Assembly (NCBI GenBank): GCA_016932045.1
Contig: JAFGDO010000032.1
Coordinates: 127,612 to 191,611, forward strand
DNA from: Candidatus Dojkabacteria bacterium
Lineage (GTDB): Bacteria; Patescibacteriota; Dojkabacteria; JAHIVN01
Direction of reading: 5' to 3'
DNA length: 64,000 bases
Shown here piece after piece: positions 1 through 24,749 of this stretch. Both the position numbers and the translations under genes were made by a program. Position 1 is the stretch's first letter, and the number at the start of each line of letters is the position of its first letter. The notes under the pieces were generated by a model, which was not told the DNA's origin, did not search any database, and worked only from the letters and a program-made list of their open reading frames with translations.

Positions 1-197
1 TTCTTGCCTACTAAAGGAATTCTTCGAGTAAGAATTGTAAAAATCGACAAGCATTCACCAGCTTCAAATACTCCTAACCTCAAAGGTTCCCATACAGGAC
101 GCTTTAATTCCCCCCAAGAGTAGGACTGGAGCGGATGAACGTTTAACTCCTCTGAGAATTTTAAATATTCGTCTTTTCCTAATTCTTTTATCTGCAT
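1..197 (-). CDS. FemAB-family (peptidoglycan interpeptide-bridge transferase-like) protein, N-terminal fragment; gene continues beyond window start
   Basis: Reverse-strand translation from ATG at 197: MQIKELGKDEYLKFSEELNVHPLQSYSWGELKRPVWEPLRLGVFEAGE..., matching the FemAB N-terminal pattern (LQSxEWGE). Truncated by the window edge and absent from the ORF track. Confidence 0.5.
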   Translation of the reverse strand, partial: MQIKELGKDEYLKFSEELNVHPLQSYSWGELKRPVWEPLRLGVFEAGECLSIFTILTRRIPLVGK

Positions 198-4174: not shown

Positions 4175-5305
4175 TTAATCAAGTCTCATAGGCATAATTA
4201 TATGCAGAAAGTCTTTATCTTCGCTATCCTTGAATACTCCAGGTGCTGTAACTCCATTTGTTTCAAATAGAACTTCCTCTCCTTCTATAGCATTTATCAT
4301 TTCACTTAAGAAGCCAACGTTGTAACCTGTCTTTAAACTATCTCCTTCAACGTCGTGGACTTCTACTATGCTTTCATTTTCTCCTACATCTGCAACTTGT
4401 GCTGACAGCTTAAGAGCGTTTTTCTCAGGCATAAATTCGAATATAGCTTTATTCCCAACTGCAGCTCTTGCAAATATGCTTACCACTTTCACTGTTTTTG
4501 CAAGAGATTCCTTATCTGCACTGAACTTATACTTTGCTTCTTTAGGCATTATTTGCTCGTATTCTGGGAATTCTCCCTCGATCAGCCTTGTAGATATCTC
4601 AACATCTTTTACTTTAAATAACATCTGATTCTTATCGCCAAGGATAAAAACCTCAAGGTCATCATCCTCTTCACATGTATCAAGAGCAATTCTAGCAACT
4701 TCATTCAAAGCCCTTGCTGGAACAATATGTTTAAACTCATCTGTCTTTTTTCTCTCTATATCAATCACCTTTTTGGAAAGGCGAAATCCATCCACACCTA
4801 CCATGGAAATACGCTTTTTAGTAGCCTCAAATAGTACTCCTGTTAGCACAGGTCTTGAGTCATCAGATGCTGAAGAGAAAGTTACCTTTTGCAAGGATTT
4901 TGCAAAAGCACAAGCTTTAACTTTGAAATCGGCTTTTCCTGTTGTCTCTGGTAGGGGAGGAAATTCTTCTGCATCCACAACATTAAACTCAGCACTGTTC
5001 ATTTTGTTATGCACAGAAAGAAGTTTTCCCTCAAGTTCGACATTCAATTTCCCGCTAGAAGATAGCGAATTCACAAATTCCGACAAGGTCTTCGCATCAA
5101 CTGTAATTTTACCTGGAGCTTTTGTATCAGCCCCTATCTGAGTAGATATACCTATTTCAAGATCAGTTGTCGAAAGTATAAGTGTATCTTTTGTTATCTC
5201 CATCAATACATTTGACAAGACGGGGATAGAAGGATTTGAACTTATTGCTTTTGAAACATAATTTAAAGCTTTAGCAAAGTTTTCTTGTGTTACAGTTGCT
5301 CTCAT
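4175..5305 (-). CDS. dnaN: DNA polymerase III beta subunit (sliding clamp)
   Basis: Three-domain clamp, N-terminus MRATVTQENFAKALNYVSKAISSNPSIPVLSNVLMEI, immediately downstream of dnaA. Confidence 0.9.
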   Translation of the reverse strand: MRATVTQENFAKALNYVSKAISSNPSIPVLSNVLMEITKDTLILSTTDLEIGISTQIGADTKAPGKITVDAKTLSEFVNSLSSSGKLNVELEGKLLSVHNKMNSAEFNVVDAEEFPPLPETTGKADFKVKACAFAKSLQKVTFSSASDDSRPVLTGVLFEATKKRISMVGVDGFRLSKKVIDIERKKTDEFKHIVPARALNEVARIALDTCEEDDDLEVFILGDKNQMLFKVKDVEISTRLIEGEFPEYEQIMPKEAKYKFSADKESLAKTVKVVSIFARAAVGNKAIFEFMPEKNALKLSAQVADVGENESIVEVHDVEGDSLKTGYNVGFLSEMINAIEGEEVLFETNGVTAPGVFKDSEDKDFLHIIMPMRLD

Positions 5306-5811
5306 GTTTCTATGACTAATATTATTTATTATATATATAAAGTAATAGTAATAACCTTGGTGGATTTGTTTATAATATTGAGAATCTCTTTACCAAGAAA
5401 AGAAACTCCTAGTCTTTCTTTGTGGATTTTAAATTTTGCTTGTATTTAGATATATACAACGAGTATCTTATTTTAAAAAGCTCTTGTCAAGGCATTTGTG
5501 AGAGTGAATAATTAGTAAAGAATTGTGGATAATGTGTGAACCGTTTTTACAAGTTCTATCATTCTCCTTTAAGCTAAAAATTCACATAAAATAAAAAAAT
5601 TAGACAGTCTAAGGAAAAAGCCTTGTCTATCAGTCAATTACTTATTCACAAAGTTTTAAAGATTCATGAGATTTATCCACTTTTGCAGTCAACAGAATTT
5701 TTAAAGAACGATAAGAGTTTCTAAAGAATTATCAACTTATACACAAATAGAACTAAAAGTGAAAAGTGGGAATGCAGATTATCTTTTGTTCTGTTTTTAC
5801 CTTTTAAAAAA
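5306..5811. promoter_or_regulatory. candidate oriC: dnaA-dnaN intergenic region with DnaA-box cluster and AT-rich unwinding stretch
   Basis: Perfect DnaA box TGTGGATAA (5524-5532, reverse complement of TTATCCACA). Near-consensus boxes TTATTCACA (5642-5650), TTATCCACT (5673-5681), TTATACACA (~5716-5726), TGTGGATTT (5421-5429), GGTGGATTT (~5359-5368). Very AT-rich run 5306-5350. Confidence 0.6.
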
Positions 5812-7197
5812 TTATTCTGTGACCGGTTTGTAAATTTCTGCTATAAGATTGTTTATTTGTTCTGAAAAAGTTAGATTGGCCTGCATTTTACTTTCAATTT
5901 TGTCAATAGCATGAATAGCAGTTGTGTGGTCATTTCTTTTTAGAATCTCTGAGACTTCCTTAAATTTATAACCAAGCTCCTTTCTCAGAATGTACATGCA
6001 AACCTGACGTGCAAATGCTATGTCTTTTGTTCTGCGTGGGCCTTTGAGATCTTTTGCATTTACTCCAAATTCTTTTGCAACATTTTTAAATATGGTGGAA
6101 ATTTTTATAGTCTTTCTTTTTGAATTAGGATCTTTTCCAAGAATCTTTGCGATTTCTGCAGGTGTAAGTTCTCCTTCTTTTTTCATTGAATTGTACAAGC
6201 TGATCTTTTGAAGCGAGCCTTCAAGTTCGCGTATGTTGTCAGTTGATATTTCAGCAATGGCTTTAAGAATGCTGTCTGAGAGATCTATCCCGTATTCCTT
6301 TCTTTTTTGTTCGAGAATTGCAACTCGCTCTTCATAATCGGGCCTTGATATGTCTGCGACCATGCCGCCTTGAAATCTGGATATAAGTCTTTTTTCAACA
6401 TTGGGTATTTCCTCAGGTGCTCTGTCTGAAGTTATAATAATTTGCTTAGATTCGTGGAAAAGTGCATTAAATGTATTGAAGAATATACTTTGGGTTTCTC
6501 TGCGATTTGAAAGCAGCTGTATATCATCTATAAGCAATGCATCCAATTTCCTATACTTGTTTCGGAATTTTTCCATAGTGTTAGCTTTAATGTTTTCAAC
6601 CATATCATTTAGAAAGTTTTCTGATGTACAGTAAAGAACTCTTTTTTCAGTGTTGCCATCCATTATAGATCTTCCTATCGCATGAATCAGATGGGTTTTT
6701 CCAACACCCGTAGGACCGTATATAAAGAAGGGATTGTAGCTTTTGCCTGGGTTTTCAGAAACTGAAATAGCAGCAGCATGTGCAAGCCGGTTAGAAGCTC
6801 CAACTACAAAATTGTTAAAAGAGTATCGCTCATTTAGATTTGAGTCTTTTATCCGTTGAAATGAAGCCTCATCTATTCCATTCTTTACTTGAAGAATTGG
6901 TTCCTGAGGGGTGTCCATGCTTTTAGTGACCTGCAAGTTTTCAGCCAGCTCCTTGTCATATACGAATTCTACTGTCAACTCTTTTCCATATACGAACGAG
7001 AGAGTTTTTTCTATAAGAGCTCGATGTTTTTGGGAAAGCCAGTCACCTGCGTAGCTATTTTTGACTCCGATAACTGCGTTTTTGCCGTTTATATCTTTTA
7101 GCCTTGTATCTTTGAACCATGTTTTAAAATGAGCAGGGGAGTCAAGTTTTATCTCTATTTGGGCTAGTGTTTTTTTCCATATTTGGTTGATGTCCAT
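5812..7197 (-). CDS. dnaA: chromosomal replication initiator protein DnaA
   Basis: Walker A GPTGVGKTHL, AAA+ motifs, C-terminal DNA-binding domain (…DIAFARQVCMYILRKEL…). Confidence 0.95.
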   Translation of the reverse strand: MDINQIWKKTLAQIEIKLDSPAHFKTWFKDTRLKDINGKNAVIGVKNSYAGDWLSQKHRALIEKTLSFVYGKELTVEFVYDKELAENLQVTKSMDTPQEPILQVKNGIDEASFQRIKDSNLNERYSFNNFVVGASNRLAHAAAISVSENPGKSYNPFFIYGPTGVGKTHLIHAIGRSIMDGNTEKRVLYCTSENFLNDMVENIKANTMEKFRNKYRKLDALLIDDIQLLSNRRETQSIFFNTFNALFHESKQIIITSDRAPEEIPNVEKRLISRFQGGMVADISRPDYEERVAILEQKRKEYGIDLSDSILKAIAEISTDNIRELEGSLQKISLYNSMKKEGELTPAEIAKILGKDPNSKRKTIKISTIFKNVAKEFGVNAKDLKGPRRTKDIAFARQVCMYILRKELGYKFKEVSEILKRNDHTTAIHAIDKIESKMQANLTFSEQINNLIAEIYKPVTE

Positions 7198-8237: not shown

Positions 8238-8411
8238 GTTTGAAGTGTTAAGCTTATAGGGTAATTATACTAAAGGGGGCAATATTAGGTAAAGCATTAG
8301 GGAAGAATTAACTCTCTGTCATTACACAAGATCTTGCATAATGATGTAAGAGAAAGTTGTAAATTCATATATCTAGTTGATATAATAGCCTATATTTGTT
8401 AGAGAAATTAG

Positions 8412-8834
8412 ATGGAAACAGACCCAAGGGCAAATGGAACGGATATATATAATGAGCCAGATTATGCTCAAGGTGGAATTCTAATAATAGAAAGGGGGCA
8501 ACCTTCTCAAACAGTCTTACGCGTTGAATTAGGACCGGTGCAAGATATGGATGAAGTTAAAATCATCAGATTGGAGGTGGCAGGTTCAGGGTCAACTAAT
8601 CATTTTGTTATGGTTGGAAAGGTAGGAGAGTTAGATTTAACTGCTTGCCTGGTAAAAACTTCAGTAACATTGAATATGACAACAGAACAGACGGATGAAG
8701 GGCCTTTCAGAGTATTCTTTGAACCTTCAGAAAGAAAGTTTTACGCAATGGCTTTACAGGCTGCCAGAGGTATGGAAGTCCAGGCGGCATTAAGGGTATG
8801 TGCCGAGGATCTTTTAGGCGCTACACTTCGCTAG
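8412..8834 (+). CDS. hypothetical protein (atypical composition)
   Basis: 140-aa ORF, no recognisable motifs. Confidence 0.45.
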   Translation: METDPRANGTDIYNEPDYAQGGILIIERGQPSQTVLRVELGPVQDMDEVKIIRLEVAGSGSTNHFVMVGKVGELDLTACLVKTSVTLNMTTEQTDEGPFRVFFEPSERKFYAMALQAARGMEVQAALRVCAEDLLGATLR

Positions 8835-8892
8835 TAAACATTTTATTCCACCTGTTGTGAATAAACTTTCCCGTATGAGATAATATCTACGT

Positions 8893-9675
8893 ATGTATAC
8901 ATCTATTAATGGCTTAAAGCTTAACTTTGAAGTTATTGGGAAGGGGGAGCCTATACTTCTTCTACATGGATGGGGGGGGAGTATAGCTAGCTTATCGCCT
9001 CTCGCTAATCGCCTAGCAAGTTGCCTAAAAGTAATTCTACTTGACCTTCCTGGTTTTGGTAAGTCGGAATCTCCACAGAAAGATTTTTGTCTTGACGATT
9101 ATGCGGAAGTTTTAGAAGAATTCCTGAAGAAGCAGGGGATAAAAGAAGTGTACATCTTTGGTCATTCTTTTGGAGGCGCGGTGGCTATTAAGCTTGCTGT
9201 GAGAAGGAATATTCAACTTAAGAAACTGATTCTTTGCAATGCTTCTGGGATTAGAAAGCCAGCAGCAATCAGCCATCAGCTATCAGCTCTACCTAAGATT
9301 GGCAAAAGGTTATCCAAGATTCCTGTAGTAAAGGGTGTGTATTTCTTTTTTCGAAAATTCTTCTACTACTACATTCTTCATAACCGGGATTATATTGACT
9401 ACCAGGAAATAGCAGGGACATTCAGGAAAGTTATTGCTGAGGATCTAACACCAATATTAAAGGAAGTTAAGGTACCAACGTTGCTTCTTTGGGGAGAAGA
9501 GGATAAAGATACGCCAGTTAGTCACGCTAAGATAATGAAATTAAAAATTGAAGACAGTCCTGAGCTTGTCGAAGGAAAAGTGAGATTGAAGATTTTCAAG
9601 GGTATTGGTCATGGTTTGCCCAAATTTAGATCGGACTTATTAGTCGATGACATTGTTGAATTCTTGAAGAGCTAA
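8893..9675 (+). CDS. alpha/beta hydrolase
   Basis: LLLHGWGGS oxyanion region, nucleophile elbow GHSFGG, C-terminal GIGHGLP. Confidence 0.8.
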   Translation: MYTSINGLKLNFEVIGKGEPILLLHGWGGSIASLSPLANRLASCLKVILLDLPGFGKSESPQKDFCLDDYAEVLEEFLKKQGIKEVYIFGHSFGGAVAIKLAVRRNIQLKKLILCNASGIRKPAAISHQLSALPKIGKRLSKIPVVKGVYFFFRKFFYYYILHNRDYIDYQEIAGTFRKVIAEDLTPILKEVKVPTLLLWGEEDKDTPVSHAKIMKLKIEDSPELVEGKVRLKIFKGIGHGLPKFRSDLLVDDIVEFLKS

Positions 9676-9775
9676 AAGTTTTCCTCAAGTTTTATTCTTT
9701 TTTCAATTAAATCAAAGTGCGAAAAAAATTCTTTTTGTGCTAAGATAGTAGTAATTAGTTATAAACAAAAATTCC

Positions 9776-11500
9776 ATGTTTAGAATTTTATTTTTTCTCC
9801 TCTTTGTCTTTTTCTTCTTCTTTACACACATAATTAAAAGGGCTTTTGAACATACTTATCTTTGGCAGATAAAAGAATATCGTTGGGACAGGTTTAGGGT
9901 TTTTCTAAGGGAGTCAGGTCTATCATTAGGGACCGTTATTCCTTCGGTAATAGCAGCGGTATTATCTTTTTTTGGTATTCTTCTTTGCGAATTTTTGCGT
10001 GTAAAATGGCTGTATCTGGTAATAGTAGTTGGATTTGGTTATTACGTTCATCTGACTTTAGTTACTTTTACAAGTATTTTAGACGGCAAGTTGATTCGTC
10101 CGAAAATAAGCATTCGGAATATGCTGATTGTCGGAACTGTTGCTCTTCTTTCTCTTATACCCATGATTGTTCCTATTAAATATTTTCATCTGCATTTCAA
10201 CTTACCCGAGCGTGAGGGAAAAGAGATAGAATCAGCAGAAGTCATTGAGATATTTCCGAAAGAAACAGAAGAAGGAATTTTTATCATTCCCTTAGAAACA
10301 GCTACTGCTGTTTTATATTTTAAATGTTTATTTATATTTGATCTTGCCCTTCCGGTTTCTATCGGTGCGATGGTGGCATTTACTTCAATTTTTGTTCATT
10401 TTTCAAGAAAAAGGAAAATACGGCTGGCAAAGGAAAAAATTAAGAAAATAGAAAATTTGAAAATCATAGGAATAACTGGTAGTTATGGAAAGACTACAAC
10501 GAAAGAAATTCTGCACATGATCTTGGCTTCAAAATATAAAACCTATGCAACACCTGAAAACGTTAATTCTGATGTCGGAGTTGCAATAACAATACTTGAG
10601 AATGTTGGGGTGCTTGCAGATGTCTTTATCGTTGAGATGGGTGCTTACAAAATAGGTGAGATCAAAGCTATCTGCGACATTGTACAGCCTGACGTTGCTG
10701 TCATTACAGCTATAGCTGAGCAGCACCTAGCTTTGTTTGGAACTATTGAGAATACATTGAAAGCAAAGTATGAGATAGTGGAACACTCTAAACCCGAAGC
10801 AGTTATCGTTCTTAATGGAGACAGTGACTTGGTACTTAGAGTAGCTGGCAAATCAGATAAACGTGAAGTTTTATATTCGACAAGAAAAGAGCTTGATGTT
10901 TGGGCGAGTGATATCAAGTCAAGAAGTGATAGAGTTGAGTTTAATGTTCATTATAAGGGAAAGGTGCAACGTGTAGAGATAAGAATGCTGGGAGAGCATA
11001 ACATCTCAAATGTACTGGCGGCAGTTTCGGTTGCCTTACAGTTGGATATGGAGCTTTCTGAGGTGGCGAAAGCCTTAAAAAAGGGGTCGGAAACTAAACA
11101 AATAGGGCGTTTGTCAGTGAGGAAGAGTAAATACGGTTTTCGAGTAATAGATGATAGTTACAATTCAAATCCAGCCGGATTTGCAGCAAGTCTAGATTTA
11201 TTAGATAAGCAAAAAGCAAATAAGAAGGTTTTAGTAACTATAGGTATACTTGAACTTGGCGGTATAAGGAAAAGCATATACGAGGAATTGTCCAAGAAGA
11301 TCGTAAGTACTTGTGATGCCGTAGTTACAACTGACGAAAAACTGGTCCGAGCTGTAAAGGAGCAGAGAAAAAAGATTCAAATAATATTTGATAAGGGTAT
11401 AGATAAACAGCTAGCTTTTTTGCGAAACGAAGTTGGCAAGAGTGACGTTGTATTATTTGAGGGGCCAAATTTGAGGTTGATTGAGGAGATAGTCAAGTAG
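9776..11500 (+). CDS. Mur ligase family protein (MurF-like central and C-terminal domains) with about 220-aa N-terminal polytopic membrane domain
   Basis: Residues 1 to about 220 contain 4-5 hydrophobic helices. P-loop GITGSYGKTTTKE at about residue 226. C-terminal VIDDSYNSNPAGF motif typical of MurF. Single continuous ORF. Confidence 0.8.
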   Translation: MFRILFFLLFVFFFFFTHIIKRAFEHTYLWQIKEYRWDRFRVFLRESGLSLGTVIPSVIAAVLSFFGILLCEFLRVKWLYLVIVVGFGYYVHLTLVTFTSILDGKLIRPKISIRNMLIVGTVALLSLIPMIVPIKYFHLHFNLPEREGKEIESAEVIEIFPKETEEGIFIIPLETATAVLYFKCLFIFDLALPVSIGAMVAFTSIFVHFSRKRKIRLAKEKIKKIENLKIIGITGSYGKTTTKEILHMILASKYKTYATPENVNSDVGVAITILENVGVLADVFIVEMGAYKIGEIKAICDIVQPDVAVITAIAEQHLALFGTIENTLKAKYEIVEHSKPEAVIVLNGDSDLVLRVAGKSDKREVLYSTRKELDVWASDIKSRSDRVEFNVHYKGKVQRVEIRMLGEHNISNVLAAVSVALQLDMELSEVAKALKKGSETKQIGRLSVRKSKYGFRVIDDSYNSNPAGFAASLDLLDKQKANKKVLVTIGILELGGIRKSIYEELSKKIVSTCDAVVTTDEKLVRAVKEQRKKIQIIFDKGIDKQLAFLRNEVGKSDVVLFEGPNLRLIEEIVK

Positions 11501-11644
11501 CTAAACAGTTAGATAACAAAATGGTTGAATAGCTTTCTTGGTAATCGGATATTGATTATGGAATATCATTGATTGTAGATTGATAATTGTTGGTTGTTTG
11601 GAGTATAGCTCGTTTGTTAAATTAGTTATTATCCATTTGAACCT

Positions 11645-12889
11645 GTGATCTTCACCTCCCTTAGCCCAAATACGCAAAGAGATGATTTTTTATTAGCACT
11701 AAAGACGATTCTAAAGCCGGGTGAATACTTCGAAGGCGAGTATATAGGTAAAGTGAAAAAATGGTTTAAAGACTTTTTCGGGGTCTTTCATGTTTCAGTA
11801 TATGAGAGCGCTCGGAGTGGTCTGTACTTTGTATTGAAGGAGCTTGGGATAAAAGAGGGCGATGAAGTTTTGTTGCAGGCATTTACATGTGTTGCGGCGG
11901 TTAATCCTGTGAAGTGGACCGGTGCAAGGCCGGTGTTCGTTGACATAAATCCAAAAGATTTTAACATGGATATAGATGACTTGGAGAATAAGGTGAATGA
12001 AAAAACAAAAGCCATAATAGTTCAGCACACTTTCGGCTACCCTGCAAAAGTAAATGAAATAAAGGAAATTGTTGGTCGCAAGGGAATCTATATCATCGAG
12101 GATTGTGCTCACACAATCGGAACAGAATACATGGGAAAGAAATTAGGTCTATGGGGCGATGCCGGAGTTTTTAGTCTTGGGAGAGATAAAGCTGTTTCAG
12201 CAAGTTTTGGAGGAGTTGTTATCACAAATAGAAAGTTTGGCAAGAATTTAGAAGAGAAAGAGAAGTTCTTAAGTTTTCCACAAAAAAAGTGGGTAAAAAA
12301 ACAGATTTTGTATACGATAGTAGCATTTTTAACAAGGACTCTCTATGAAGTGTTATTTATCGGGAAGCTTGTACACTATATTGCAACACGGTGGAATTTG
12401 GTTGAAAAGGCAACTACTGAGGAAGAGAAAAAAGAAGGTGAAATGCCGGATAATGCGCGTTCCAAACTCCCAAATGCCTTTGCAAGACTGGCATTTAACC
12501 AGCTTAGAAAAATTGGAATTCTGAATAAGAAGAGAAGAGACCTTTCTCACTTATATGTAAAGAGACTCTCAAAGATAGGTCTTGAAGAAGTGAAACTGCC
12601 TGAGTGGAAAATCGGTGAACATTTCTATCCCTTGCGATTTCCTTTGCTTGTAAAAAGAAGAGATGAGCTGTTAAAATTTGCCCAAGAGAGGGGAATGCTG
12701 CTGGGCGACTGGTATGACGTACCAATTGCTCCAAAACAGGTTGATCAAGTGAAGACAGGATACAAACAAGGGAGTTGTGTTTACGCCGAGAAAGTTTGCG
12801 AAAGTATTTTAAATCTGCCACTTCATTCTGACTTAACAGAAGAGGATGCTCTAAAGGTGATTGCAGTTATAAGGGACTTTTATCTATAA
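11645..12889 (+). CDS. DegT/DnrJ/EryC1/StrS-family PLP-dependent aminotransferase
   Basis: SARSGLYFVLKELG…EVLLQAFTCVAAV…IIVQHTFGYPA…IIEDCAHTIG…GRDKAVSASFGG pattern of sugar aminotransferases. GTG start. Confidence 0.8.
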   Translation: MIFTSLSPNTQRDDFLLALKTILKPGEYFEGEYIGKVKKWFKDFFGVFHVSVYESARSGLYFVLKELGIKEGDEVLLQAFTCVAAVNPVKWTGARPVFVDINPKDFNMDIDDLENKVNEKTKAIIVQHTFGYPAKVNEIKEIVGRKGIYIIEDCAHTIGTEYMGKKLGLWGDAGVFSLGRDKAVSASFGGVVITNRKFGKNLEEKEKFLSFPQKKWVKKQILYTIVAFLTRTLYEVLFIGKLVHYIATRWNLVEKATTEEEKKEGEMPDNARSKLPNAFARLAFNQLRKIGILNKKRRDLSHLYVKRLSKIGLEEVKLPEWKIGEHFYPLRFPLLVKRRDELLKFAQERGMLLGDWYDVPIAPKQVDQVKTGYKQGSCVYAEKVCESILNLPLHSDLTEEDALKVIAVIRDFYL

Positions 12890-12964
12890 GAAGCGGTTCA
12901 TACAGTAGAGCATACAGTTGTGAGTACAACTGTATATACGATATATTTCTAATTAATAGAATTT

Positions 12965-14005
12965 ATGGAAATTAAACAAATAGAAGATAAAAGTTTATGG
13001 GAGAAATTTATCCTGAAGCAGAATTATTCGTCTCCTTTTCTCTCGTGGAACTGGGCGGAGTTTGAGAGGAGCTTAGGCAATAAGTTTGAGAATTACGGTT
13101 TGTTTGAGGGAAAAAATCTAATTGGGCTTATTCCTATAAAGTATGTTGATGCAAAAAGAGGGAAGTACTTACACCTTCGTCATGGGCCAATTTTTAATTT
13201 TAACAAGGAGGAAATTTGGGCAGAATTCTTCAAATTTATAATAAGAAAGGCGAGGGATGAAAAATTCTGGTTTGTTCGGTTAAGTCCTCTTATTCCTCAA
13301 GATCTCGAGCTTAAGTATGGTGAAGTTTTGTCGCGTCTTAAGGAAAGTCCTATGCATGACGTGGATGCTGAAATTACCTGGGTATTAAACCTTTCTCAAA
13401 GTGAAGAAGAAATTATGCAGAACATGAGGAAGAATACAAGGTATTATATCCGAAAAGCTATAAAAGATGGAGTTGAGATTCTGAAAACAAAAAATCCAAA
13501 GTATCTAGAGGAGTTCTGGAATATCTACTCCGACACAGTAAAGAGACAGAAGTGGACTGCTTATTCAAGAGATTACATAGAAAAAGAATTTAATGCATTT
13601 GTTTCAGATGATGAGATAGATCTATATCTTGCCAAATACAAGGGTGAGTTTATTGCAGCTTCATTAATTCTCTATTACCAAAACCAGGCTATTTATCATC
13701 ATAGTGGCACTATAGAGCAATACTTAAAGATCCCCGCAAGTTACCTGATTCAATGGGAGGCCATAAAAGAAGCAAAAAGGCGGAATTTAAGCTGGTACAA
13801 CTTTTGGGGCATCTCTCCTCTTGTTATGGAAGATGGGGAATACAAAGCTCAGGCAGGTCATCCTTGGACAGGACTTACTTTTTTTAAACTTGGTTTTGGA
13901 GGAGAGGTGAGGCAATTTGTTCATGCAAAAGATTTGCCCATAAATAAAAAGTACTTTGTAACAAGGTTCTTTGAGAAAATTGAGAAGTGGAGAAGAGGAT
14001 ATTAA
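12965..14005 (+). CDS. FemAB-family aminoacyl-tRNA-dependent peptidyltransferase-like protein
   Basis: N-terminal LWEKFILKQNYSSPFLSWNWAEF and later YLHLRHGPI and YIRKAIKDGVEI motifs of the FemAB/FemX family. Confidence 0.8.
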   Translation: MEIKQIEDKSLWEKFILKQNYSSPFLSWNWAEFERSLGNKFENYGLFEGKNLIGLIPIKYVDAKRGKYLHLRHGPIFNFNKEEIWAEFFKFIIRKARDEKFWFVRLSPLIPQDLELKYGEVLSRLKESPMHDVDAEITWVLNLSQSEEEIMQNMRKNTRYYIRKAIKDGVEILKTKNPKYLEEFWNIYSDTVKRQKWTAYSRDYIEKEFNAFVSDDEIDLYLAKYKGEFIAASLILYYQNQAIYHHSGTIEQYLKIPASYLIQWEAIKEAKRRNLSWYNFWGISPLVMEDGEYKAQAGHPWTGLTFFKLGFGGEVRQFVHAKDLPINKKYFVTRFFEKIEKWRRGY

Positions 14006-14173
14006 ATAATATCCAATTATCAATAATCAATCTTCAATTAATAAGGAGGAATTATGAATGAAGAATTGAGGAAGGTAGAAGGTAATAAGTAGAAGAAATG
14101 TTGTAGGTGGAAATTTGATTTGTTAAATTCTCACACTTAAAACATTTTCAAATTATTGATTAAATGGAGAAGA

Positions 14174-15559
14174 ATGAATAAATTAAAAGCTTTTGCATCT
14201 AAATTGTTTCTTAAGTATTTGCAAATTCTCACAAGAAGCTATGTAAAGAGGCAGAATATTGATGTGTTCGGATTAACCGGAACAGCAGGCAAGACGACTT
14301 TGACAATTGCATTATATGAAGTGCTTTCAAAGAAGTATAAGTCCGGCATGACATATACTCAAGGCAAAGGTCTGAATAGTGAAACCGGAATTCCTTTTGC
14401 AATGCTTGGAGTAAAAGTTGATGGATACTCTATAGCTGATTGGGTGCGATACTTTTTTGAATTTACCTGGAACTTCTTCTTCAAAAAGTGTCCTTATGAA
14501 AAGTATGTTATTGAGATGGGTGTAGATAAACCGGGTGACATGGACTTCATCCTTTCGATGACGAAGGTAGATCTAGGTATATTCTTAACAATAGGAAAGG
14601 TTCATGCTGCAAATTTTGAGAAGTTGCTGGAATCCAAATTCAAAGATAAAGAGCTGGCTGAACTGAAAGAAAAGGTTGACGACGTTTTGATGGAGTTAAT
14701 ATTTGAAGAAAAAGCGAAGCTTATCAGAAAATTGGATTCTGACGGGTGGGCAGTTTTAAATTATGACGAACCGATTATTCGTAATCTAGAAAAAGTTACA
14801 AAGGCAAAGACTATTACATTCGGGTTATCAAAAGATGCTGACATTTCAGGTGTTATTACAAAGAATACACCAAGTGTTTTCGAGGCAGAAGTTTCATATA
14901 AAGGAAAAAGTGAGAAAATTGAAATTACAAAATATTTTATAAACGAGAATGTACTTAGGACGCTGCTTGCTGCAATTGCAGTTGGTATAACTTATGAAAT
15001 TCCTTTGAAAAAATGTATCAGCGCAATAGAAGGAATGAATTTTCCTCCCGGAAGGATGACAAAGATAGAGGGAATAAAAGACACAGTTATTATTGATAGC
15101 TCATATAATGCATCAACGCAAGCTGTAATAGAAGCTCTGAATAATCTTGCGTTATTTAAAAAACGAGAAAAGATTGCAATACTTGGGGATATGAGAGAGC
15201 TTGGTAGAGCAGAAAAGAGAGAGCATGAGGAGGTAGCAAGACATGCAGCGAATAGAACAGATAAACTGATTGTGATTGGACCTGCAATGAAAAAATATTT
15301 TCTACCGGAAGTGATAAAGCAAGGATTCGATGTAAGCAGTATCTGGCACTTTGATAATACTTGGAAGGCACTGCGGTTTATACAAGAAAAAGTAATAAAA
15401 GGAGGAGAAGCGATCCTTATAAAGGGCTCACAAAATACTTTGTTTCTTGAAATTATTGTTGAGGGGCTGATGAAGGATAAGGCAAAAGTAGAAGATATTT
15501 TGTGTAGGAGAGGGAGTTTTTGGGAGAAGAAGAGGAGACAATTAAAAATTAAAAATTAA
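14174..15559 (+). CDS. Mur ligase family protein lacking the canonical N-terminal substrate domain (MurF/CapB-like)
   Basis: P-loop GLTGTAGKTTLT only about 35 residues from the start. C-terminal IIDSSYNASTQAV…ILGDMRELG typical of the MurF C-domain. ATG at 14174 with GGAGA upstream; the ORF track starts at TTG 14156. Confidence 0.8.
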   Translation: MNKLKAFASKLFLKYLQILTRSYVKRQNIDVFGLTGTAGKTTLTIALYEVLSKKYKSGMTYTQGKGLNSETGIPFAMLGVKVDGYSIADWVRYFFEFTWNFFFKKCPYEKYVIEMGVDKPGDMDFILSMTKVDLGIFLTIGKVHAANFEKLLESKFKDKELAELKEKVDDVLMELIFEEKAKLIRKLDSDGWAVLNYDEPIIRNLEKVTKAKTITFGLSKDADISGVITKNTPSVFEAEVSYKGKSEKIEITKYFINENVLRTLLAAIAVGITYEIPLKKCISAIEGMNFPPGRMTKIEGIKDTVIIDSSYNASTQAVIEALNNLALFKKREKIAILGDMRELGRAEKREHEEVARHAANRTDKLIVIGPAMKKYFLPEVIKQGFDVSSIWHFDNTWKALRFIQEKVIKGGEAILIKGSQNTLFLEIIVEGLMKDKAKVEDILCRRGSFWEKKRRQLKIKN

Positions 15560-15561
15560 TT

Positions 15562-16206
15562 ATGAAACTGTTTTTTTATTCTGGAGGAACAAGAAAGTTA
15601 AATCACAATCTAAACCTTGAACTTATAAAATTACTATCTCTAAGTTCAAGAATAACATACATACCTTCTTCATCGGATATTAAGAGAAAAAATTTCGATA
15701 AATTTAGAGAATGGTTTGGGTTTTATGGTTATAAGAATTTTCTGTATTTTGATCTTGATAAAGAATTTGACAAAAGAATGATTTCGGAAGTTGAAAAATC
15801 CGAGGCAGTCTATCTTTCTGGGGGTAATACATTTCATTTTATTCATTTAATAAGAAAAAGAAAATTTAGCAGGGTTCTTAGAGATTTTGTATCTTGTGGC
15901 AAAGTACTGATAGGCTTAAGTGCTGGAAGTATGATTATGACGCCAACAATTAGAGTTTCAGTTGATTATCATAATCATCTAGGTGATTTCGATGAGCTTA
16001 ATGTTGATGAAATTAAAAGTTATAAGGGGTTGAGTTTAGTAGACTTTGAGTTTTTACCGCATTTCAATCTTAAACCAAAAAGGAACTTTGCTGAAAATTA
16101 TTTAAAGAGAAGAGGACGAGACATATACACTTGTTGTGATGGGAGTGGAATTATCGTTGAAGGTAAGAAACTAAAACTTATTGGAGAGGTAGAAAAGATC
16201 TGTTAA
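15562..16206 (+). CDS. peptidase S51 family (dipeptidase E / cyanophycinase-like)
   Basis: YLSGGNTFHFIHLIRK…GLSAGSMIMTPTI: Ser nucleophile in GxSAG context, characteristic of S51. Confidence 0.75.
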   Translation: MKLFFYSGGTRKLNHNLNLELIKLLSLSSRITYIPSSSDIKRKNFDKFREWFGFYGYKNFLYFDLDKEFDKRMISEVEKSEAVYLSGGNTFHFIHLIRKRKFSRVLRDFVSCGKVLIGLSAGSMIMTPTIRVSVDYHNHLGDFDELNVDEIKSYKGLSLVDFEFLPHFNLKPKRNFAENYLKRRGRDIYTCCDGSGIIVEGKKLKLIGEVEKIC

Positions 16207-16210
16207 TGTT

Positions 16211-16285
16211 TGCACTGAGCGACCCTGAGCACTGAGTCTGTCGAAGTGCGGGAATTATGCGTTTAAAGTGCGGGAAATAATTCAT
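16211..16285 (+). repeat. family B copy 2 plus tandem AGTGCGGGAAWTAT direct repeats
   Basis: CACTGAGCGACCCTGAGCACTGAGTCTGTCGAAGTGCGGGAATTATGCG…AAAGTGCGGGAAATAATTC. Confidence 0.45.
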
Positions 16286-16376
16286 GTACTATTATCCAAC
16301 TATTCAAAGATACAAATATTCAATTAAGAATTAAAAAATTAATAATTAGGAATATAGCTTACAGCCCTAAGTTTAC

Positions 16377-16403
16377 GGCTATTAAACCATTCAGCCATAC
16401 GAC
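16377..16403 (+). repeat. short dispersed intergenic repeat, family A copy 1 (GGCYATNNNACCATYCAGCCRTNCGRC)
   Basis: GGCTATTAAACCATTCAGCCATACGAC. Confidence 0.5.
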
Positions 16404-16506
16404 AATACATTTTAAACCTTTCATCCACTATATGTTAAAATAAGTAAGTCTATTCAATTGTAAGTACTGACCTTTTACCATATACCTTGTACTTTATACC
16501 TTTTTC

Positions 16507-17205
16507 ATGAAAATCGATATCCTTACAATTTTTCCTGAGATGTTTGAGTCGCCATTTGACCAGTCCATTGTTAAACGGGCAAAAGATGCGGGAAAAGCTG
16601 AGATACATATTTATGATCTTCGTAAGTGGACAACCGACAAGCACAAAACTGTTGACGATAAGCCCTTTGGAGGTGGTGCTGGGATGATCATGATGATTGA
16701 GCCAATTTATAAGGCTCTTGAAGAATTGGATCCTAATCATAAAGCCCATAGGATATTATTTACCGCAAAAGGTGCGAGAATTATGCAGGAAAAAGTGCGG
16801 GAATTATATAAAAAGGAGCATTTAGTACTGATTTGCGGCCATTATGAGGGTGTTGATCACCGAGTGCATGAGTACTTAGTTGATGAATGTATTTCTATTG
16901 GAGACTTTGTTTTAACTGGCGGCGAGATACCAGCAATGGCACTAACCGATGCAGTTGTTAGATTATTACCAGGGGTATTGGGGAATGTAGAGTCTTTGTC
17001 TGAGGAGTCTTTTTCAGCTGGAAGCAAGGCTGAAAGCCAGCAGCTGACAGCTGACAGCTATTTAGAATATCCCCAGTACACGCGTCCAGCAGTTTTCAAA
17101 ACAAAAGACGAGAAAGAATTGAAAGTTCCCGAAGTATTGCTTAGCGGTGATCATGAAAAGATTGCCGAGTGGCATGAAGCAAATAAACAACCCGTAGGGG
17201 ACTAA
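16507..17205 (+). CDS. trmD: tRNA (guanine37-N1)-methyltransferase
   Basis: MKIDILTIFPEMF…DDKPFGGGAGM…LVLICGHYEGVDHRV. Carries a low-complexity C-terminal insertion (SAGSKAESQQLTADS). Confidence 0.9.
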   Translation: MKIDILTIFPEMFESPFDQSIVKRAKDAGKAEIHIYDLRKWTTDKHKTVDDKPFGGGAGMIMMIEPIYKALEELDPNHKAHRILFTAKGARIMQEKVRELYKKEHLVLICGHYEGVDHRVHEYLVDECISIGDFVLTGGEIPAMALTDAVVRLLPGVLGNVESLSEESFSAGSKAESQQLTADSYLEYPQYTRPAVFKTKDEKELKVPEVLLSGDHEKIAEWHEANKQPVGD

Positions 17206-24681: not shown

Positions 24682-24749
24682 AGTATAAAACTCTAAATTC
24701 TAATATTTAAGTTCCCAAATAACTATGCAACTATTTAACTATGTATTTC

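What the first reader, a model, noticed from the sequence alone, without database searches (positions are those of the whole stretch)
9776..16206. Cluster of two N-domain-less MurF-like ligases (one membrane-embedded) with DegT aminotransferase, FemAB transferase and S51 peptidase
Seen in sequence: five co-directional genes, all on the + strand. (i) A 574-aa protein has its first roughly 220 residues as 4-5 hydrophobic helices, followed by a Mur-ligase P-loop (GITGSYGKTTT) and a MurF-type C-domain (VIDDSYNSNP). (ii) A DegT-family sugar aminotransferase. (iii) A FemAB-family protein. (iv) A second MurF-like ligase whose P-loop (GLTGTAGKTTLT) lies only about 35 residues from the N-terminus. (v) A peptidase S51 (GLSAGSM nucleophile). 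Established knowledge: canonical MurC-F enzymes carry an N-terminal Rossmann-like domain of about 80-100 aa that binds the UDP-MurNAc substrate. Mur-ligase-fold enzymes lacking it (MurT, CapB/PgsB, FolC, the cyanophycin synthetase C-half) act on non-UDP substrates. FemAB enzymes add amino acids from aminoacyl-tRNA to lipid-linked peptidoglycan precursors. S51 contains cyanophycinase and dipeptidase E, and cyanophycin synthetase itself contains a Mur-ligase module. Inference: both ligases have lost the UDP-binding domain and one has gained a membrane anchor. This suggests ATP-dependent amino-acid ligation onto a membrane-bound (lipid-linked) or polymeric acceptor rather than a cytoplasmic UDP precursor. 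The cluster could make a modified stem peptide or cross-bridge, or a separate amino-sugar/peptide polymer, with the S51 peptidase as a trimming or turnover activity. A further partial FemAB gene sits at the window start (1..197).
Basis: partly seen in the sequence, partly recalled or inferred. Interest (0 to 1): 0.8.

Follow-up and report, generated by a model that had tools for sequence, protein, structure and literature searches.

The report
Membrane-anchored MurF plus a short MurF
This candidate-phylum (Dojkabacteria) genome has two unusual forms of the cell-wall enzyme MurF. One is fused to a five-helix membrane domain and belongs to a widespread family, always partnered with a hydrolase, that I could not find described; the gene cluster is therefore ordinary peptidoglycan machinery in an unexpected form, not a new polymer pathway.

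Summary
They are not one conserved unit.

**Ligase 1 (9776-11500)**
- It has a 5-helix membrane domain plus MurF-type middle and C domains.
- The family spans phyla: about 1,000 clusters at 50% identity.
- In Firmicutes, Bacteroidales, Chloroflexota and Poribacteria the next gene is a D-Ala-D-Ala ligase.
- In Poribacteria the trio fills the murF slot: murE-[hydrolase-ligase-ddl]-mraY.
- In Patescibacteria the order is hydrolase-ligase-DegT-FemAB-ftsQ.

**Ligase 2 (14156-15559)**
- It belongs to a Patescibacteria clade that groups with canonical MurF (100/100 bootstraps).
- Elsewhere it sits directly after ftsI, near murE, murC and mraY.
- Patescibacteria MurE also lacks the N-domain, so this loss is lineage-wide.

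**S51 peptidase**
Its adjacency is not conserved.

**Best reading**
Both ligases are dipeptide-adding MurF-type enzymes of peptidoglycan synthesis. They appear to be two alternative forms that co-occur in Dojkabacteria. Still open:
- whether the membrane form acts on UDP-linked or lipid-linked tripeptide;
- what the hydrolase does;
- what the DegT-like enzyme does.

I found no published description. I rate it a new variant of a known kind, of moderate to high interest.

The parts
8893..9675 (+). Alpha/beta-hydrolase (260 aa), the obligate upstream partner of the membrane MurF family. The catalytic triad is Ser92, Asp204 and His240.
   Evidence: Pfam Abhydrolase_1 scores 84.6 bits. A homologue lies directly upstream of the ligase in 64 of 82 loci across phyla. 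The triad and the HGW oxyanion motif are invariant in 64 sequences. No curated NCBIfam family is reached.
9776..10450 (+). Membrane domain of ligase 1 (residues 1-225). It has 5 transmembrane helices (about 2-32, 51-72, 77-102, 113-141, 173-208), with the N-terminus outside and the C-terminus inside. Two conserved motifs sit in Lys/Arg-rich, predicted cytoplasmic loops: W30-Q-x-K-E-Y-R-x-D-R39 (nt 9863-9892) and R108-P-K-x-S-x-R-N115 (nt 10097-10120).
10451..11500 (+). MurF-type catalytic part of ligase 1 (residues 226-574). It contains the P-loop G232-T242, the conserved Lys K331 (position of the carbamylated lysine in other Mur ligases; that assignment is from memory) and DDSYNSNP at 459-466.
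   Evidence: Pfam Mur_ligase_M and Mur_ligase_C match. TIGR01143 murF scores 261 bits against a cut-off of 288.6, matching the model from position 60 onward. PDB MurF structures are the best matches by sequence and by fold, with TM-score up to 0.73 relative to the PDB structure over about 365 columns.
11645..12889 (+). DegT/DnrJ/EryC1-family PLP enzyme (414 aa) with PLP lysine K182 and D153. Compared with solved sugar aminotransferases it carries a conserved insert of about 50 aa (residues ~197-274) that includes a moderately hydrophobic helix.
   Evidence: Pfam scores 219.6 bits. It falls below every NCBIfam equivalog cut-off. The PDB alignment splits into two blocks, 14-196 and 275-412. A homologue lies directly after the ligase in 26 Patescibacteria loci. 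Conserved residues are, hydropathy.
12965..14005 (+). FemAB-family aminoacyl-tRNA-dependent transferase (346 aa), FemX-like.
   Evidence: Pfam FemAB scores 123.9 bits. The closest PDB entries are S. aureus FemA and Weissella FemX, both weak at E about 1e-9. A homologue lies 1-4 genes after the ligase in about 25 Patescibacteria loci, usually followed by ftsQ.
14156..15559 (+). Ligase 2, a soluble Patescibacteria-type MurF without domain 1 (467 aa from TTG 14156; probably 461 aa from ATG 14174). The P-loop is G39-T48. A family-specific C-terminal tail L449-C-R-R-G-x-x-W-x-x-x-R460 is present (nt 15500-15535).
   Evidence: Pfam middle and C domains match. TIGR01143 scores 190 bits, below the cut-off. 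The family alignment is A3. The ligase 2 family groups with canonical MurF in 100 of 100 NJ bootstraps. Among 31 ligase-2-type loci, an ftsI-type PBP is directly upstream in 12. Two loci read PBP-ligase 2-x-MurE-MurC-x-x-MraY-FtsW-MurG.
15562..16206 (+). Peptidase S51 (214 aa, nucleophile Ser120). It starts 2 nt after the ligase 2 stop codon, but the adjacency is not conserved.
   Evidence: Pfam scores 97.4 bits. It falls below the PepE cut-off (48 vs 156) and the cyanophycinase cut-off (32 vs 126.6). It is absent from the syntenic Dojkabacteria locus L003, from the other ligase-1-family loci and from all 31 ligase 2 loci.
1..197 (-). The 5' end (start) of a further FemAB gene (minus strand). 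A second complete FemAB gene lies just beyond it, outside the window.
   Evidence: Locus L004, from the same organism, shows FemAB genes of 330 and 338 aa upstream of the window start.

Best explanation
Both ligases are MurF-type enzymes of peptidoglycan precursor synthesis. They use ATP to add a preformed D-Ala-D-Ala-type dipeptide to the stem tripeptide.

**Ligase 2** is the Patescibacteria version of ordinary MurF. It has lost the N-terminal UDP-binding domain, as Patescibacteria MurE also has.

**Ligase 1** belongs to a separate, old sister family of MurF. In this family domain 1 is replaced by a five-helix membrane domain that carries two conserved basic motifs in loops predicted to face the cytoplasm. 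The enzyme therefore works at the inner face of the membrane, next to MraY. It always works with a catalytically intact alpha/beta-hydrolase.
- Outside Patescibacteria it comes with its own D-Ala-D-Ala ligase (Ddl).
- In Patescibacteria it is followed by a DegT-like PLP enzyme and a FemX-like transferase that would add the cross-bridge residue to its product.

The two forms look like alternative MurFs used by different Patescibacteria lineages. Dojkabacteria keep both, side by side.

**Shown:** domain architecture, family membership, synteny and tree position.

**Inferred:** the dipeptide-adding activity, the peptidoglycan acceptor and the functional equivalence of the two forms.

**Unknown:** whether the acceptor of ligase 1 is UDP-linked or lipid-linked, and what the hydrolase and the DegT-like enzyme do.
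For: **MurF is the nearest family for both ligases**
- NCBIfam TIGR01143 scores 261 and 190 bits; the next family scores far lower.
- PDB sequence searches agree, as does Foldseek.

**Link to the dipeptide supply**
- In about 38 non-Patescibacteria loci the gene after the membrane ligase is a Ddl. The four checked pass the NCBIfam D-Ala-D-Ala ligase subfamily cut-offs: NF002528 329-366 bits vs 262, and TIGR01205 274-305 bits vs 245.65.
- One ligase 2 locus (L098) is flanked by two Ddl genes.

**Position in the dcw (division and cell wall) gene cluster**
- Six Poribacteria loci read ftsI-murE-[hydrolase]-[membrane ligase]-[ddl]-mraY-murD-ftsW-murG-murC (the hydrolase was not detected in one, L050). 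No other MurF-like gene lies within 10 kb.
- Patescibacteria loci read ftsI-(2-7 genes)-hydrolase-membrane ligase-DegT-FemAB-ftsQ. mraY, murD, ftsW, murG or murE-murC lie just upstream in L013, L030 and L085.
- Ligase-2-type loci read ftsI-ligase 2, with murE, murC, mraY, ftsW and murG following.

**The two layouts look like alternatives**
- In at least 11 membrane-ligase loci, ftsI is not followed by ligase 2.
- In the 31 ligase 2 loci there is no membrane ligase, hydrolase, DegT or FemAB within 10 kb.
- Only Dojkabacteria (the window and L003) show both.

**Tree** (54 sequences, 361 columns, NJ, 100 bootstraps)
- The membrane family is monophyletic in 100.
- Ligase 2 plus canonical MurF group together in 100.
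- All three are separated from MurE in 100.

**N-domain loss is lineage-wide**
- Patescibacteria MurE is 388-408 aa. The P-loop is at residue ~32 where the search pattern matched (L085, L091), against residue 123 in Poribacteria MurE.
- The MurD homologues checked have the P-loop at ~110-130, and the MurC homologues (468-472 aa) are full length, so both appear to keep their N-domains.

**The membrane domain is functional, not just an anchor**
- W30, Q31, K33, E34, Y35 and P109 are invariant; R36, D38, R39 and R114 are conserved in at least 90% of sequences.
- These residues sit in Lys/Arg-rich loops predicted to be cytoplasmic.

**The hydrolase is catalytically intact**
- Ser92, Asp204 and His240 are invariant in 64 sequences.
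Against: - No whole genome could be searched. Absence of a canonical MurF is not shown for any genome with the membrane form, and the apparent mutual exclusion of the two Patescibacteria forms rests on +/-10 kb windows only.
- In Bacillales the membrane form is sporadic. It occurs in many haloalkaliphilic genera and some Paenibacillus, and Salibacterium salarium yields two distinct cluster representatives. Their relatives are known to rely on canonical MurF. There it is therefore more likely an accessory second MurF-Ddl set than the housekeeping enzyme.
- Dojkabacteria keep both forms next to each other. This argues that the two are not simply redundant.
- Both proteins score below the curated MurF cut-off.
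- Loss of the UDP-binding domain is exactly what would be expected if the acceptor were not UDP-linked.
- The invariable hydrolase and the DegT-like enzyme have no role in the textbook MurF reaction.
- The tree is a simple distance tree.
- Gene calls in related loci come from a crude longest-ORF caller, and some MAG (metagenome-assembled genome) organism labels are unreliable.
Confidence: 0.55

Rival explanations
1. Lipid-linked acceptor (the open part of the first reader's idea). The membrane ligase does not use UDP-MurNAc-tripeptide. Instead it adds the dipeptide to undecaprenyl-pyrophosphate-linked MurNAc-tripeptide (lipid I or II). The two basic cytoplasmic-face motifs of the membrane domain would bind the lipid pyrophosphate, in place of the lost UDP-binding domain. 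MraY would then act before the MurF step.
For: - Domain 1, which binds UDP in canonical MurF (established knowledge), is fully replaced by a polytopic domain.
- Invariant K33, near-invariant R36, R39 and R114, and R108 and K110 of the second motif lie in predicted cytoplasmic loops.
- In the best 150 profile hits the domain is seen only with a Mur ligase.
- MurT is a precedent: a Mur-fold ligase without an N-domain that acts on lipid II (established knowledge). Its PDB structures are among the fold matches.
- Patescibacteria MurE also lacks domain 1 and has a hydrophobic N-terminus.
Against: - No direct evidence exists.
- Soluble ligase 2 and Patescibacteria MurE also lack domain 1, so loss of the domain does not by itself imply a lipid substrate.
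- A membrane tether next to MraY explains the anchor equally well.
- The gene order murE-ligase-ddl-mraY in Poribacteria is the textbook order.
Confidence: 0.22
2. Alternative-terminus or remodelling pathway. The hydrolase, membrane ligase and dedicated Ddl form a self-contained second route that makes precursors ending in a different dipeptide (D-Ala-D-X). The hydrolase would remove or edit the normal terminus. This is the logic of glycopeptide-resistance clusters, some of which (from memory) also carry an extra murF and a Fem-family gene such as vanK. Ligase 2, or a canonical MurF, makes the standard precursor.
For: - The trio stands apart from the dcw cluster in Firmicutes and Bacteroidales.
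- The linked Ddl passes only the broad subfamily cut-offs. It misses the D-Ala-D-Ala equivalog cut-offs (for example NF002526, 292-368 bits vs 449). VanG-type D-Ala-D-Ser ligase also scores 228-253 bits, below its cut-off of 495.
- Distribution in Bacillales is sporadic, with two distinct copies recovered from Salibacterium salarium.
- Dojkabacteria keep both ligases.
- The hydrolase has an intact catalytic triad.
Against: - No VanH/VanX/VanY-type genes or two-component regulators are seen in the loci.
- None of the family was found on PLSDB plasmids.
- In Poribacteria and most Patescibacteria loci it is the only MurF-like gene in the dcw region.
- Ddl specificity was not analysed at residue level.
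Confidence: 0.1
3. Roles reversed or split. The membrane ligase is the only true MurF. Ligase 2 is a stem-peptide-modifying ligase that adds an amino acid to another carboxylate of the precursor (for example the D-Glu alpha-carboxyl, as MurT activates it) or to the cross-bridge. Its conserved C-terminal tail would mark the new specificity.
For: - Ligase 2 is more diverged from the MurF model (190 vs 261 bits).
- It has inserts in the middle domain and an invariant tail LCRRGxxWxxxR that canonical MurF lacks.
- In Dojkabacteria it follows FemAB directly.
Against: - Ligase 2 groups with canonical MurF in 100 of 100 bootstraps.
- It lies directly after ftsI and beside murE, murC and mraY. In those loci no other MurF-like gene is seen within 10 kb.
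- One locus has Ddl genes on both sides.
Confidence: 0.1
4. Separate polymer. The cluster builds a non-peptidoglycan amino-sugar or peptide polymer, with the S51 peptidase as the turnover enzyme.
For: - A DegT-family enzyme normally makes amino sugars.
- UDP-sugar dehydrogenase and GT2 genes lie about 9 kb upstream of the window.
- S51 includes cyanophycinase (established knowledge).
Against: - S51 is not conserved next to either ligase and is below the cyanophycinase cut-off.
- No ATP-grasp module or polymerase, flippase or export genes are conserved in the module.
- The conserved neighbours are Ddl, FemAB, ftsQ, ftsI and mur genes.
Confidence: 0.03

Closest known systems
Canonical MurF (UDP-MurNAc-tripeptide:D-Ala-D-Ala ligase; TIGR01143; PDB 3zl8, 4qf5, 1gg4)
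   Same: - Both ligases have the middle ATP-binding domain with P-loop and conserved Lys, and the C-domain with the DDxYNxNP-type motif.
- MurF is the best sequence and fold match.
- Relatives are linked to ddl and to dcw-cluster genes.
   Different: - Domain 1 is absent in both.
- In ligase 1 it is replaced by a conserved 5-helix membrane domain, and the gene is paired with an alpha/beta-hydrolase.
- Ligase 2 has middle-domain inserts and a conserved basic/aromatic C-terminal tail.
- Both score below the curated family cut-off.
- The membrane family is a sister group to canonical MurF, not a recent derivative of it.
MurT of the MurT/GatD lipid II amidotransferase
   Same: It is a Mur-ligase fold without an N-terminal UDP-binding domain that acts at the membrane on lipid II (established knowledge). 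It appears among the fold matches.
   Different: - NF045635 MurT scores only 39 bits against a cut-off of 800.
- There is no DUF1727 C-domain and no GatD partner.
- The C-domain here is MurF-type.
- MurT has no transmembrane domain.
Extra murF and Fem-family genes (vanK) in glycopeptide producer and resistance clusters (recalled from memory, not checked here)
   Same: A second, dedicated set of Ddl-type ligase, MurF-type ligase and Fem transferase sits beside the housekeeping pathway.
   Different: - Those MurF copies are, as far as I recall, normal soluble three-domain enzymes.
- No VanH/X/Y or VanRS genes occur here.
- The present family is chromosomal, spans phyla, and in several lineages is the only MurF-like gene seen in the dcw region.
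FemX of Weissella viridescens and FemA/B of S. aureus
   Same: The FemAB gene after the ligase is a clear Pfam family member. It would use aminoacyl-tRNA to add a branch residue to the MurF product (established knowledge for FemX).
   Different: - Similarity is weak (E about 1e-9; NCBIfam FemX 64.5 bits vs a cut-off of 500).
- Donor and acceptor are unknown.
- At least three paralogues lie within 15 kb.
Natural Mur fusions (MurE-MurF, MurC-Ddl, MurD-FtsW) surveyed in PMC10214165
   Same: These are Mur ligases fused to another module, read as a way to couple steps of the pathway. In the B. pertussis MurE-MurF fusion the MurF part lacks its N-terminal cap.
   Different: That survey selected Mur-family proteins longer than 600 aa. 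It does not mention a transmembrane MurF or a hydrolase partner. Here the fused module is a membrane domain of no known fold.

Membership tests
MurF (UDP-MurNAc-tripeptide--D-Ala-D-Ala ligase, TIGR01143) | Mur_ligase_M with P-loop plus Mur_ligase_C, with MurF as the closest subfamily | tested here: met
   Pfam middle and C domains are present in both ligases. TIGR01143 is the top family for both. PDB MurF structures are top by sequence, and for ligase 1 also by fold. Both fall in the MurF side of the tree, separated from MurE in 100 of 100 bootstraps.
MurF (UDP-MurNAc-tripeptide--D-Ala-D-Ala ligase, TIGR01143) | N-terminal domain 1 that binds the UDP moiety (three-domain architecture) | tested here: not met
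   There is no Pfam N-domain. Alignments to PDB MurF start at residue 66 (ligase 1) and residue 86 (ligase 2) of the solved enzymes. Residues 1-224 of ligase 1 fold as a transmembrane helix bundle. Ligase 2 has only about 30 residues before the P-loop in 29 homologues. The 150-nt gap upstream cannot encode a domain.
MurF (UDP-MurNAc-tripeptide--D-Ala-D-Ala ligase, TIGR01143) | Score at or above the curated family cut-off (288.6 bits) | tested here: not met
   Ligase 1 scores 261.3 bits and ligase 2 scores 190.2 bits. Membrane-family members from other phyla score 244-254 bits. For ligase 1 and its family the shortfall corresponds to the missing N-domain positions of the model.
MurF (UDP-MurNAc-tripeptide--D-Ala-D-Ala ligase, TIGR01143) | Genomic association with ddl and/or the murE-murF-mraY region of the dcw cluster | tested here: met
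   This is met in relatives, not in the window itself. The membrane family is followed by Ddl in about 38 loci and sits between murE and mraY in 6 Poribacteria loci. The ligase 2 family sits after ftsI in 12 loci and is followed within a few genes by murE, murC, mraY, ftsW and murG in L091 and L095.
MurF (UDP-MurNAc-tripeptide--D-Ala-D-Ala ligase, TIGR01143) | [quoted passage not shown] | not testable with these tools
   This needs enzyme assays or complementation.
MurT (lipid II isoglutaminyl synthase subunit) | MurT equivalog score, DUF1727 C-terminal domain and adjacent GatD | tested here: not met
   NF045635 scores 39.1 bits against a cut-off of 800. No DUF1727 hit is found in Pfam. No glutaminase gene occurs in the conserved neighbourhood.
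Cyanophycin synthetase / cyanophycinase system | ATP-grasp module fused to the Mur-type module; S51 enzyme reaching the cyanophycinase cut-off; the two genes linked | tested here: not met
   cya_phycin_syn scores 64 and 44 bits against a cut-off of 850. Cyanophycinase scores 32.2 bits against 126.6. Neither ligase has an ATP-grasp domain. S51 is not conserved next to either ligase.
FemAB family (PF02388) | Pfam gathering score | tested here: met
   The score is 123.9 bits against a cut-off of 24. The FemX equivalog is not reached (64.5 bits vs 500).
DegT/DnrJ/EryC1/StrS aminotransferase family (PF01041) | Pfam gathering score and the PLP-binding lysine | tested here: met
   The score is 219.6 bits against a cut-off of 19.8. 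K182 aligns with the corresponding Lys of PDB 7b0d (that this is the PLP-binding Lys is family knowledge) and is conserved in 27 family members. No equivalog cut-off is reached, so the substrate is unknown.
Peptidase S51 (PF03575) | Pfam gathering score and nucleophile serine motif | tested here: met
   The score is 97.4 bits against a cut-off of 23.9. GLSAGS with Ser120 is present. The PepE equivalog is not reached (48.3 bits vs 156).

The most novel reading that the evidence does not exclude
The membrane-embedded MurF family completes the stem peptide on a lipid-linked precursor (undecaprenyl-PP-MurNAc-tripeptide) rather than on UDP-MurNAc-tripeptide. Its conserved cytoplasmic-face basic motifs would read the lipid pyrophosphate, and the obligate alpha/beta-hydrolase would act as an editing or recycling partner. 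Taken with the N-domain-less MurE and MurF of Patescibacteria, this would mean that part of the 'cytoplasmic' Mur pathway runs on the membrane in a large share of bacterial diversity.
Probability: 0.2. Interest if true: 0.85.

Novelty: new variant of a known kind. Interest (0 to 1): 0.62.

Why it matters
MurF is taught as a soluble three-domain cytoplasmic enzyme and is an antibiotic target.

This analysis shows a polytopic membrane form without the UDP-binding domain. It always has a serine-hydrolase partner. It occurs in about a thousand sequence clusters across Patescibacteria, Poribacteria, Chloroflexota, Bacteroidales and many cultured haloalkaliphilic Bacillales. In some lineages it sits exactly where murF belongs. 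Annotation pipelines label it plain 'MurF', so the difference has gone unnoticed in the literature I could search.

It raises three testable questions:
- Is the last precursor step physically coupled to MraY, or even moved onto the lipid carrier?
- What does the hydrolase do?
- How do Patescibacteria, whose MurE and MurF both lack the UDP-binding domain, recognise their substrates?

Cultured carriers such as Evansella, Gracilibacillus and Paenibacillus make experiments feasible.

Tried and rejected
- **Promoter and terminator scan of 8300-16600.** Counts did not exceed those in shuffled sequence, so it is uninformative about operon structure.
- **Fold search against afdb50.** The library was unavailable.
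- **Literature searches.** Eight searches and four papers read gave no description of a transmembrane MurF. The 'murF2' query returned only muscle RING-finger papers.
- **Plasmid search.** No membrane-type member was found; only canonical murF matched, through the catalytic part.
- **Extending beyond the window to find mur genes of the same genome.** One look-up found no record and one added nothing past the window end. The upstream extension gave two more FemAB genes, an amidase, an S8 peptidase, a UDP-sugar dehydrogenase and a GT2, but no mur genes.
- **First tree attempts.** They failed because of a missing outgroup, the time limit and saturated Kimura distances. Only the Poisson-distance NJ tree is used.

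Ideas considered and rejected:
- A hidden Mur N-domain in the hydrophobic region. Nothing was found.
- A frameshifted separate upstream gene. It is a single ORF and the fusion is conserved.
- Cyanophycin-like, CapB-like or MurT-like identity. Scores are far below the cut-offs.
- S51 as part of the system. Its adjacency is not conserved.

Full report
**Source and setting**

The 574-aa protein is 100% identical to an NCBI protein from a Candidatus Dojkabacteria (candidate division WS6, Patescibacteria/CPR) contig of 202 kb. The window has about 37% G+C. dnaA (5812-7197, minus strand) and dnaN sit at a GC-skew sign change, so the cluster lies about 3 kb from the replication origin. ftsQ-ftsA-ftsZ lie at 41927-45894. 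No canonical mur gene was found in the parts of the window that were annotated; 32-41 kb was not annotated.

**Observation**

All five + strand ORFs exist as described. Pfam and NCBIfam confirm two Mur-ligase proteins with middle and C domains but no N-domain, a DegT-family PLP enzyme, a FemAB protein and an S51 peptidase. For both ligases MurF is by far the best family. TIGR01143 scores 261 and 190 bits, both below the 288.6 cut-off, and the ligase 1 match starts at model position 60.

PDB searches show that ligase 1 residues 211-572 align with T. maritima MurF residues 66-415. Ligase 2 residue 21 aligns with residue 86 of S. pneumoniae MurF. The roughly 65-85-residue domain 1 is therefore missing from both.

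A 40-sequence alignment gave an AlphaFold model of ligase 1 with pLDDT 90.6. Helices span residues 2-32, 37-46, 51-72, 77-102, 113-125, 128-141 and 173-224, followed by a MurF-like body. Its best solved-structure matches are A. baumannii and T. maritima MurF over about 365 columns.

Hydropathy and loop charges give five transmembrane helices, with the N-terminus outside and the C-terminus inside. The fusion is a single ORF and is conserved in homologues, so it is not a frameshift artefact.

**The membrane domain**

Its sequence is not merely hydrophobic. W30, Q31, K33, E34, Y35 and P109 are invariant, and R36, D38, R39 and R114 are nearly so, in homologues down to about 22% identity over this domain. 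Both motifs (WQxKEYRxDR and RPKxSxRN) lie in Lys/Arg-rich loops predicted to face the cytoplasm. In other phyla the first motif degenerates to h-Q-x-x-x-Y, for example LQQNSYR.

**What travels with ligase 1**

A scan of GTDB species genomes returned 80 loci. All encode proteins of 450-610 aa with an N-terminal extension of about 105-230 residues before the MurF-type catalytic part.

I clustered neighbours across 82 loci and labelled them with Pfam, NCBIfam and BLAST. Three patterns emerged.

- **Hydrolase partner.** An alpha/beta-hydrolase lies directly upstream in 64 of 82 loci in every phylum. Its Ser92-Asp204-His240 triad is invariant.
- **Outside Patescibacteria.** In Bacillales, Clostridia, Bacteroidales/Muribaculaceae, Chloroflexota and Poribacteria, the next gene in about 38 loci is a Ddl of roughly 397 aa. 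The four checked pass the NCBIfam D-Ala-D-Ala ligase subfamily cut-offs. In six Poribacteria loci the order is ftsL-ftsI-murE-[hydrolase]-[membrane ligase]-[ddl]-mraY-murD-ftsW-murG-murC. The membrane ligase thus occupies the canonical murF slot, and no other MurF-like gene lies within 10 kb.
- **In Patescibacteria.** In Saccharibacteria, Paceibacterota, Staskawicz-, Wildermuth-, Nealson-, Yanofsky-, Peribacteria and WS6, the order is ftsI-(2-7 genes, usually including a class II Asp/Asn/Lys-type tRNA synthetase and seryl-tRNA synthetase, SerRS)-hydrolase-ligase-DegT-FemAB-ftsQ. In some loci mraY, murD, ftsW, murG or murE-murC lie just upstream.

The gene order hydrolase-ligase 1-DegT-FemAB is therefore strongly conserved. 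It belongs to the division and cell wall (dcw) neighbourhood.

**Ligase 2**

Its homologues are widespread in Patescibacteria, including Chisholm- and Levybacteria. They are 390-470 aa long, always have the P-loop about 30 residues from the start, and share an invariant C-terminal tail LCRRGxxWxxxR that canonical MurF lacks.

Outside Dojkabacteria they are not next to the ligase 1 module. A metagenome scan gave 31 ligase-2-type loci.

- In 12 the gene directly follows an ftsI-type PBP.
- L091 reads PBP-ligase 2-x-MurE-MurC-x-x-MraY-FtsW-MurG. L095 shows the same order from ligase 2 onward, because its contig begins at ligase 2.
- One locus is flanked by Ddl genes.
- None has a hydrolase, membrane ligase, DegT, FemAB or S51 within 10 kb.

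In a distance tree of the catalytic parts (54 sequences, 100 bootstraps), the ligase 2 family groups with canonical MurF in 100 replicates. The membrane family is a separate monophyletic sister group (100), and all three are separated from MurE (100).

Patescibacteria MurE homologues (388-408 aa) also lack the N-domain; the P-loop is at residue ~32 where the search pattern matched. The MurD homologues checked have the P-loop at ~110-130, and the MurC homologues are full length, so both appear to keep theirs. Loss of the MurE/F-type domain 1 is therefore a lineage-wide trait, not a peculiarity of this cluster.

**Two layouts**

In at least 11 Patescibacteria loci with the membrane ligase, ftsI is not followed by ligase 2. 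L085, for example, reads PBP-MurE-MurC-4 genes-hydrolase-membrane ligase-DegT-FemAB. Ligase 2 loci show no membrane module. Only Dojkabacteria (this window, and L003 at 58% identity) carry both, as hydrolase-ligase 1-DegT-(NUDIX)-FemAB-ligase 2.

Within the limits of +/-10 kb windows, this looks like two alternative MurF forms in different lineages.

**S51**

Its start lies 2 nt after the ligase 2 stop. It is nevertheless absent from L003, from the other ligase-1-family loci and from all ligase 2 loci, and it reaches neither the PepE nor the cyanophycinase cut-off. I treat it as a neighbour, not a component.

**Mechanism**

The best-supported reading is that both ligases add a Ddl-type dipeptide to the peptidoglycan stem tripeptide. 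Ligase 2 does so as the lineage's ordinary but domain-1-less MurF. Ligase 1 does so at the cytoplasmic face of the membrane, beside MraY. The FemX-like enzyme would then add a branch residue. At least three FemAB paralogues lie within 15 kb, which suggests a multi-residue bridge.

- **Shown:** architecture, family placement, conserved synteny, conserved motifs and their predicted sidedness, and an intact hydrolase triad.
- **Inferred:** the substrates.
- **Not explained:**
  - why a serine hydrolase is obligatory;
  - what the DegT-like enzyme does — its PLP lysine K182 is conserved, it has a conserved, partly hydrophobic insert of about 50 aa, and it reaches no equivalog;
  - why Dojkabacteria keep both ligases.

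**Caveats**

In Bacillales the membrane form is sporadic. It is found in many cultured haloalkaliphiles (Pseudalkalibacillus, Alteribacillus, Evansella, Gracilibacillus, Salibacterium and others) and in some Paenibacillus. There it is probably an accessory second MurF-Ddl set, which keeps open a Van-like 'alternative terminus' function. It was not found on PLSDB plasmids.

No whole genome could be searched, so presence or absence of a canonical MurF alongside it is untested. Related-locus genes come from a simple longest-ORF caller. Some MAG (metagenome-assembled genome) organism labels are clearly wrong: L044, labelled 'Gammaproteobacteria', carries the Patescibacteria-type module. The tree is neighbour-joining on Poisson distances.

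**Comparison with known systems and novelty**

Functionally and by descent these are MurF-type ligases, but both fail two formal MurF membership tests: domain 1 and the curated score. They are not MurT, CapB, FolC or cyanophycin synthetase.

Eight full-text searches and four papers, including a survey of natural Mur fusions and two Mur-ligase phylogeny papers, gave no mention of a transmembrane MurF, of its hydrolase partner, or of N-domain-less Patescibacteria MurE/MurF. Public annotation simply calls them 'MurF', 'Mur ligase family protein' or 'hypothetical'.

**Verdict**

- It is a new variant of a known kind.
- The lipid-linked-acceptor hypothesis remains the most novel reading not excluded, at about 20%.

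Noticed in passing
L085:2090-3316; the 402-aa ORF of L091; the 388-aa ORF of L095: Patescibacteria MurE homologues are only 388-408 aa, with the P-loop at residue ~32 (in L085 and L091, where the pattern matched). They therefore lack the MurE/F-type N-terminal domain too. Their N-termini (MWQ[RK]IKNxYH followed by a hydrophobic stretch) faintly resemble the WQIKEYR motif of the membrane MurF.
   Followed up: partly
Patescibacteria loci L008-L085, two and three to four genes upstream of the membrane ligase: Seryl-tRNA synthetase lies two genes upstream of the membrane ligase in 20 loci. A class II Asp/Asn/Lys-type tRNA synthetase lies three to four genes upstream in 16. They sit close to an aminoacyl-tRNA-dependent FemAB gene. 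This may hint at the donor, or may be plain conserved synteny.
   Followed up: no
L004:41-9118 (about 9 kb upstream of window position 1) and window 1-197 (-): Two more FemAB genes (330 and 338 aa), an Amidase_2 protein (536 aa), an S8 peptidase (895 aa), a UDP-sugar dehydrogenase and a GT2 glycosyltransferase lie just before the window. At least three FemAB paralogues therefore lie within 15 kb.
   Followed up: partly
window 4175-7197 (-) and about 6000: dnaN (4175-5305) and dnaA (5812-7197) coincide with a GC-skew sign change near 6 kb. This is probably the chromosomal replication origin.
   Followed up: no
window 11645-12889, residues ~197-274: The DegT-like enzyme has a conserved insert of about 50 aa (Y223, Y234, G240, E261, K262) that solved sugar aminotransferases lack. 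A hydrophobic helix in the insert reaches a relaxed transmembrane threshold (1.5 vs 1.6) in about 40% of family members, so the protein may associate with the membrane.
   Followed up: partly
window 14156-15559, residues 449-460 (nt 15500-15535): The ligase 2 family has an invariant C-terminal tail L-C-R-R-G-x-x-W-x-x-x-R that canonical MurF lacks. Its role is unknown.
   Followed up: no
L059:9746-11119 and L035:4871-6226: Short variants of the membrane family (451-457 aa) have an N-terminal extension of only about 105 residues. They keep the Q-x-x-x-Y motif at the very N-terminus but have fewer helices. L059 lies head to head with mraY-ftsW-murG-ftsQ.
   Followed up: no
window 41927-48096: ftsQ-ftsA-ftsZ (41927-45894), a sortase (45934-46764, minus strand) and a sigma-70 gene (46933-48096) lie here. 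In most other Patescibacteria ftsQ directly follows the FemAB gene of the module. Here it is 26 kb away.
   Followed up: no
window 18950-21049, 21092-21577 (-), 23815-26564 (-): These ORFs encode a 699-aa ADP-forming acyl-CoA synthetase-like protein, a small protein with weak matches to baeRF (release-factor-like) families, and 2-oxoacid:ferredoxin oxidoreductase subunits.
   Followed up: no
L053:10712-11917 and other Ddl genes after the membrane ligase: The Ddl linked to the membrane ligase is longer than usual (about 390-410 aa). In Pseudalkalibacillus it carries a Gly/Ser/Lys-rich insert (GGGSKDGGGSKG). It passes only the broad D-Ala-D-Ala ligase subfamily cut-offs, not the equivalog ones.
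   Followed up: partly
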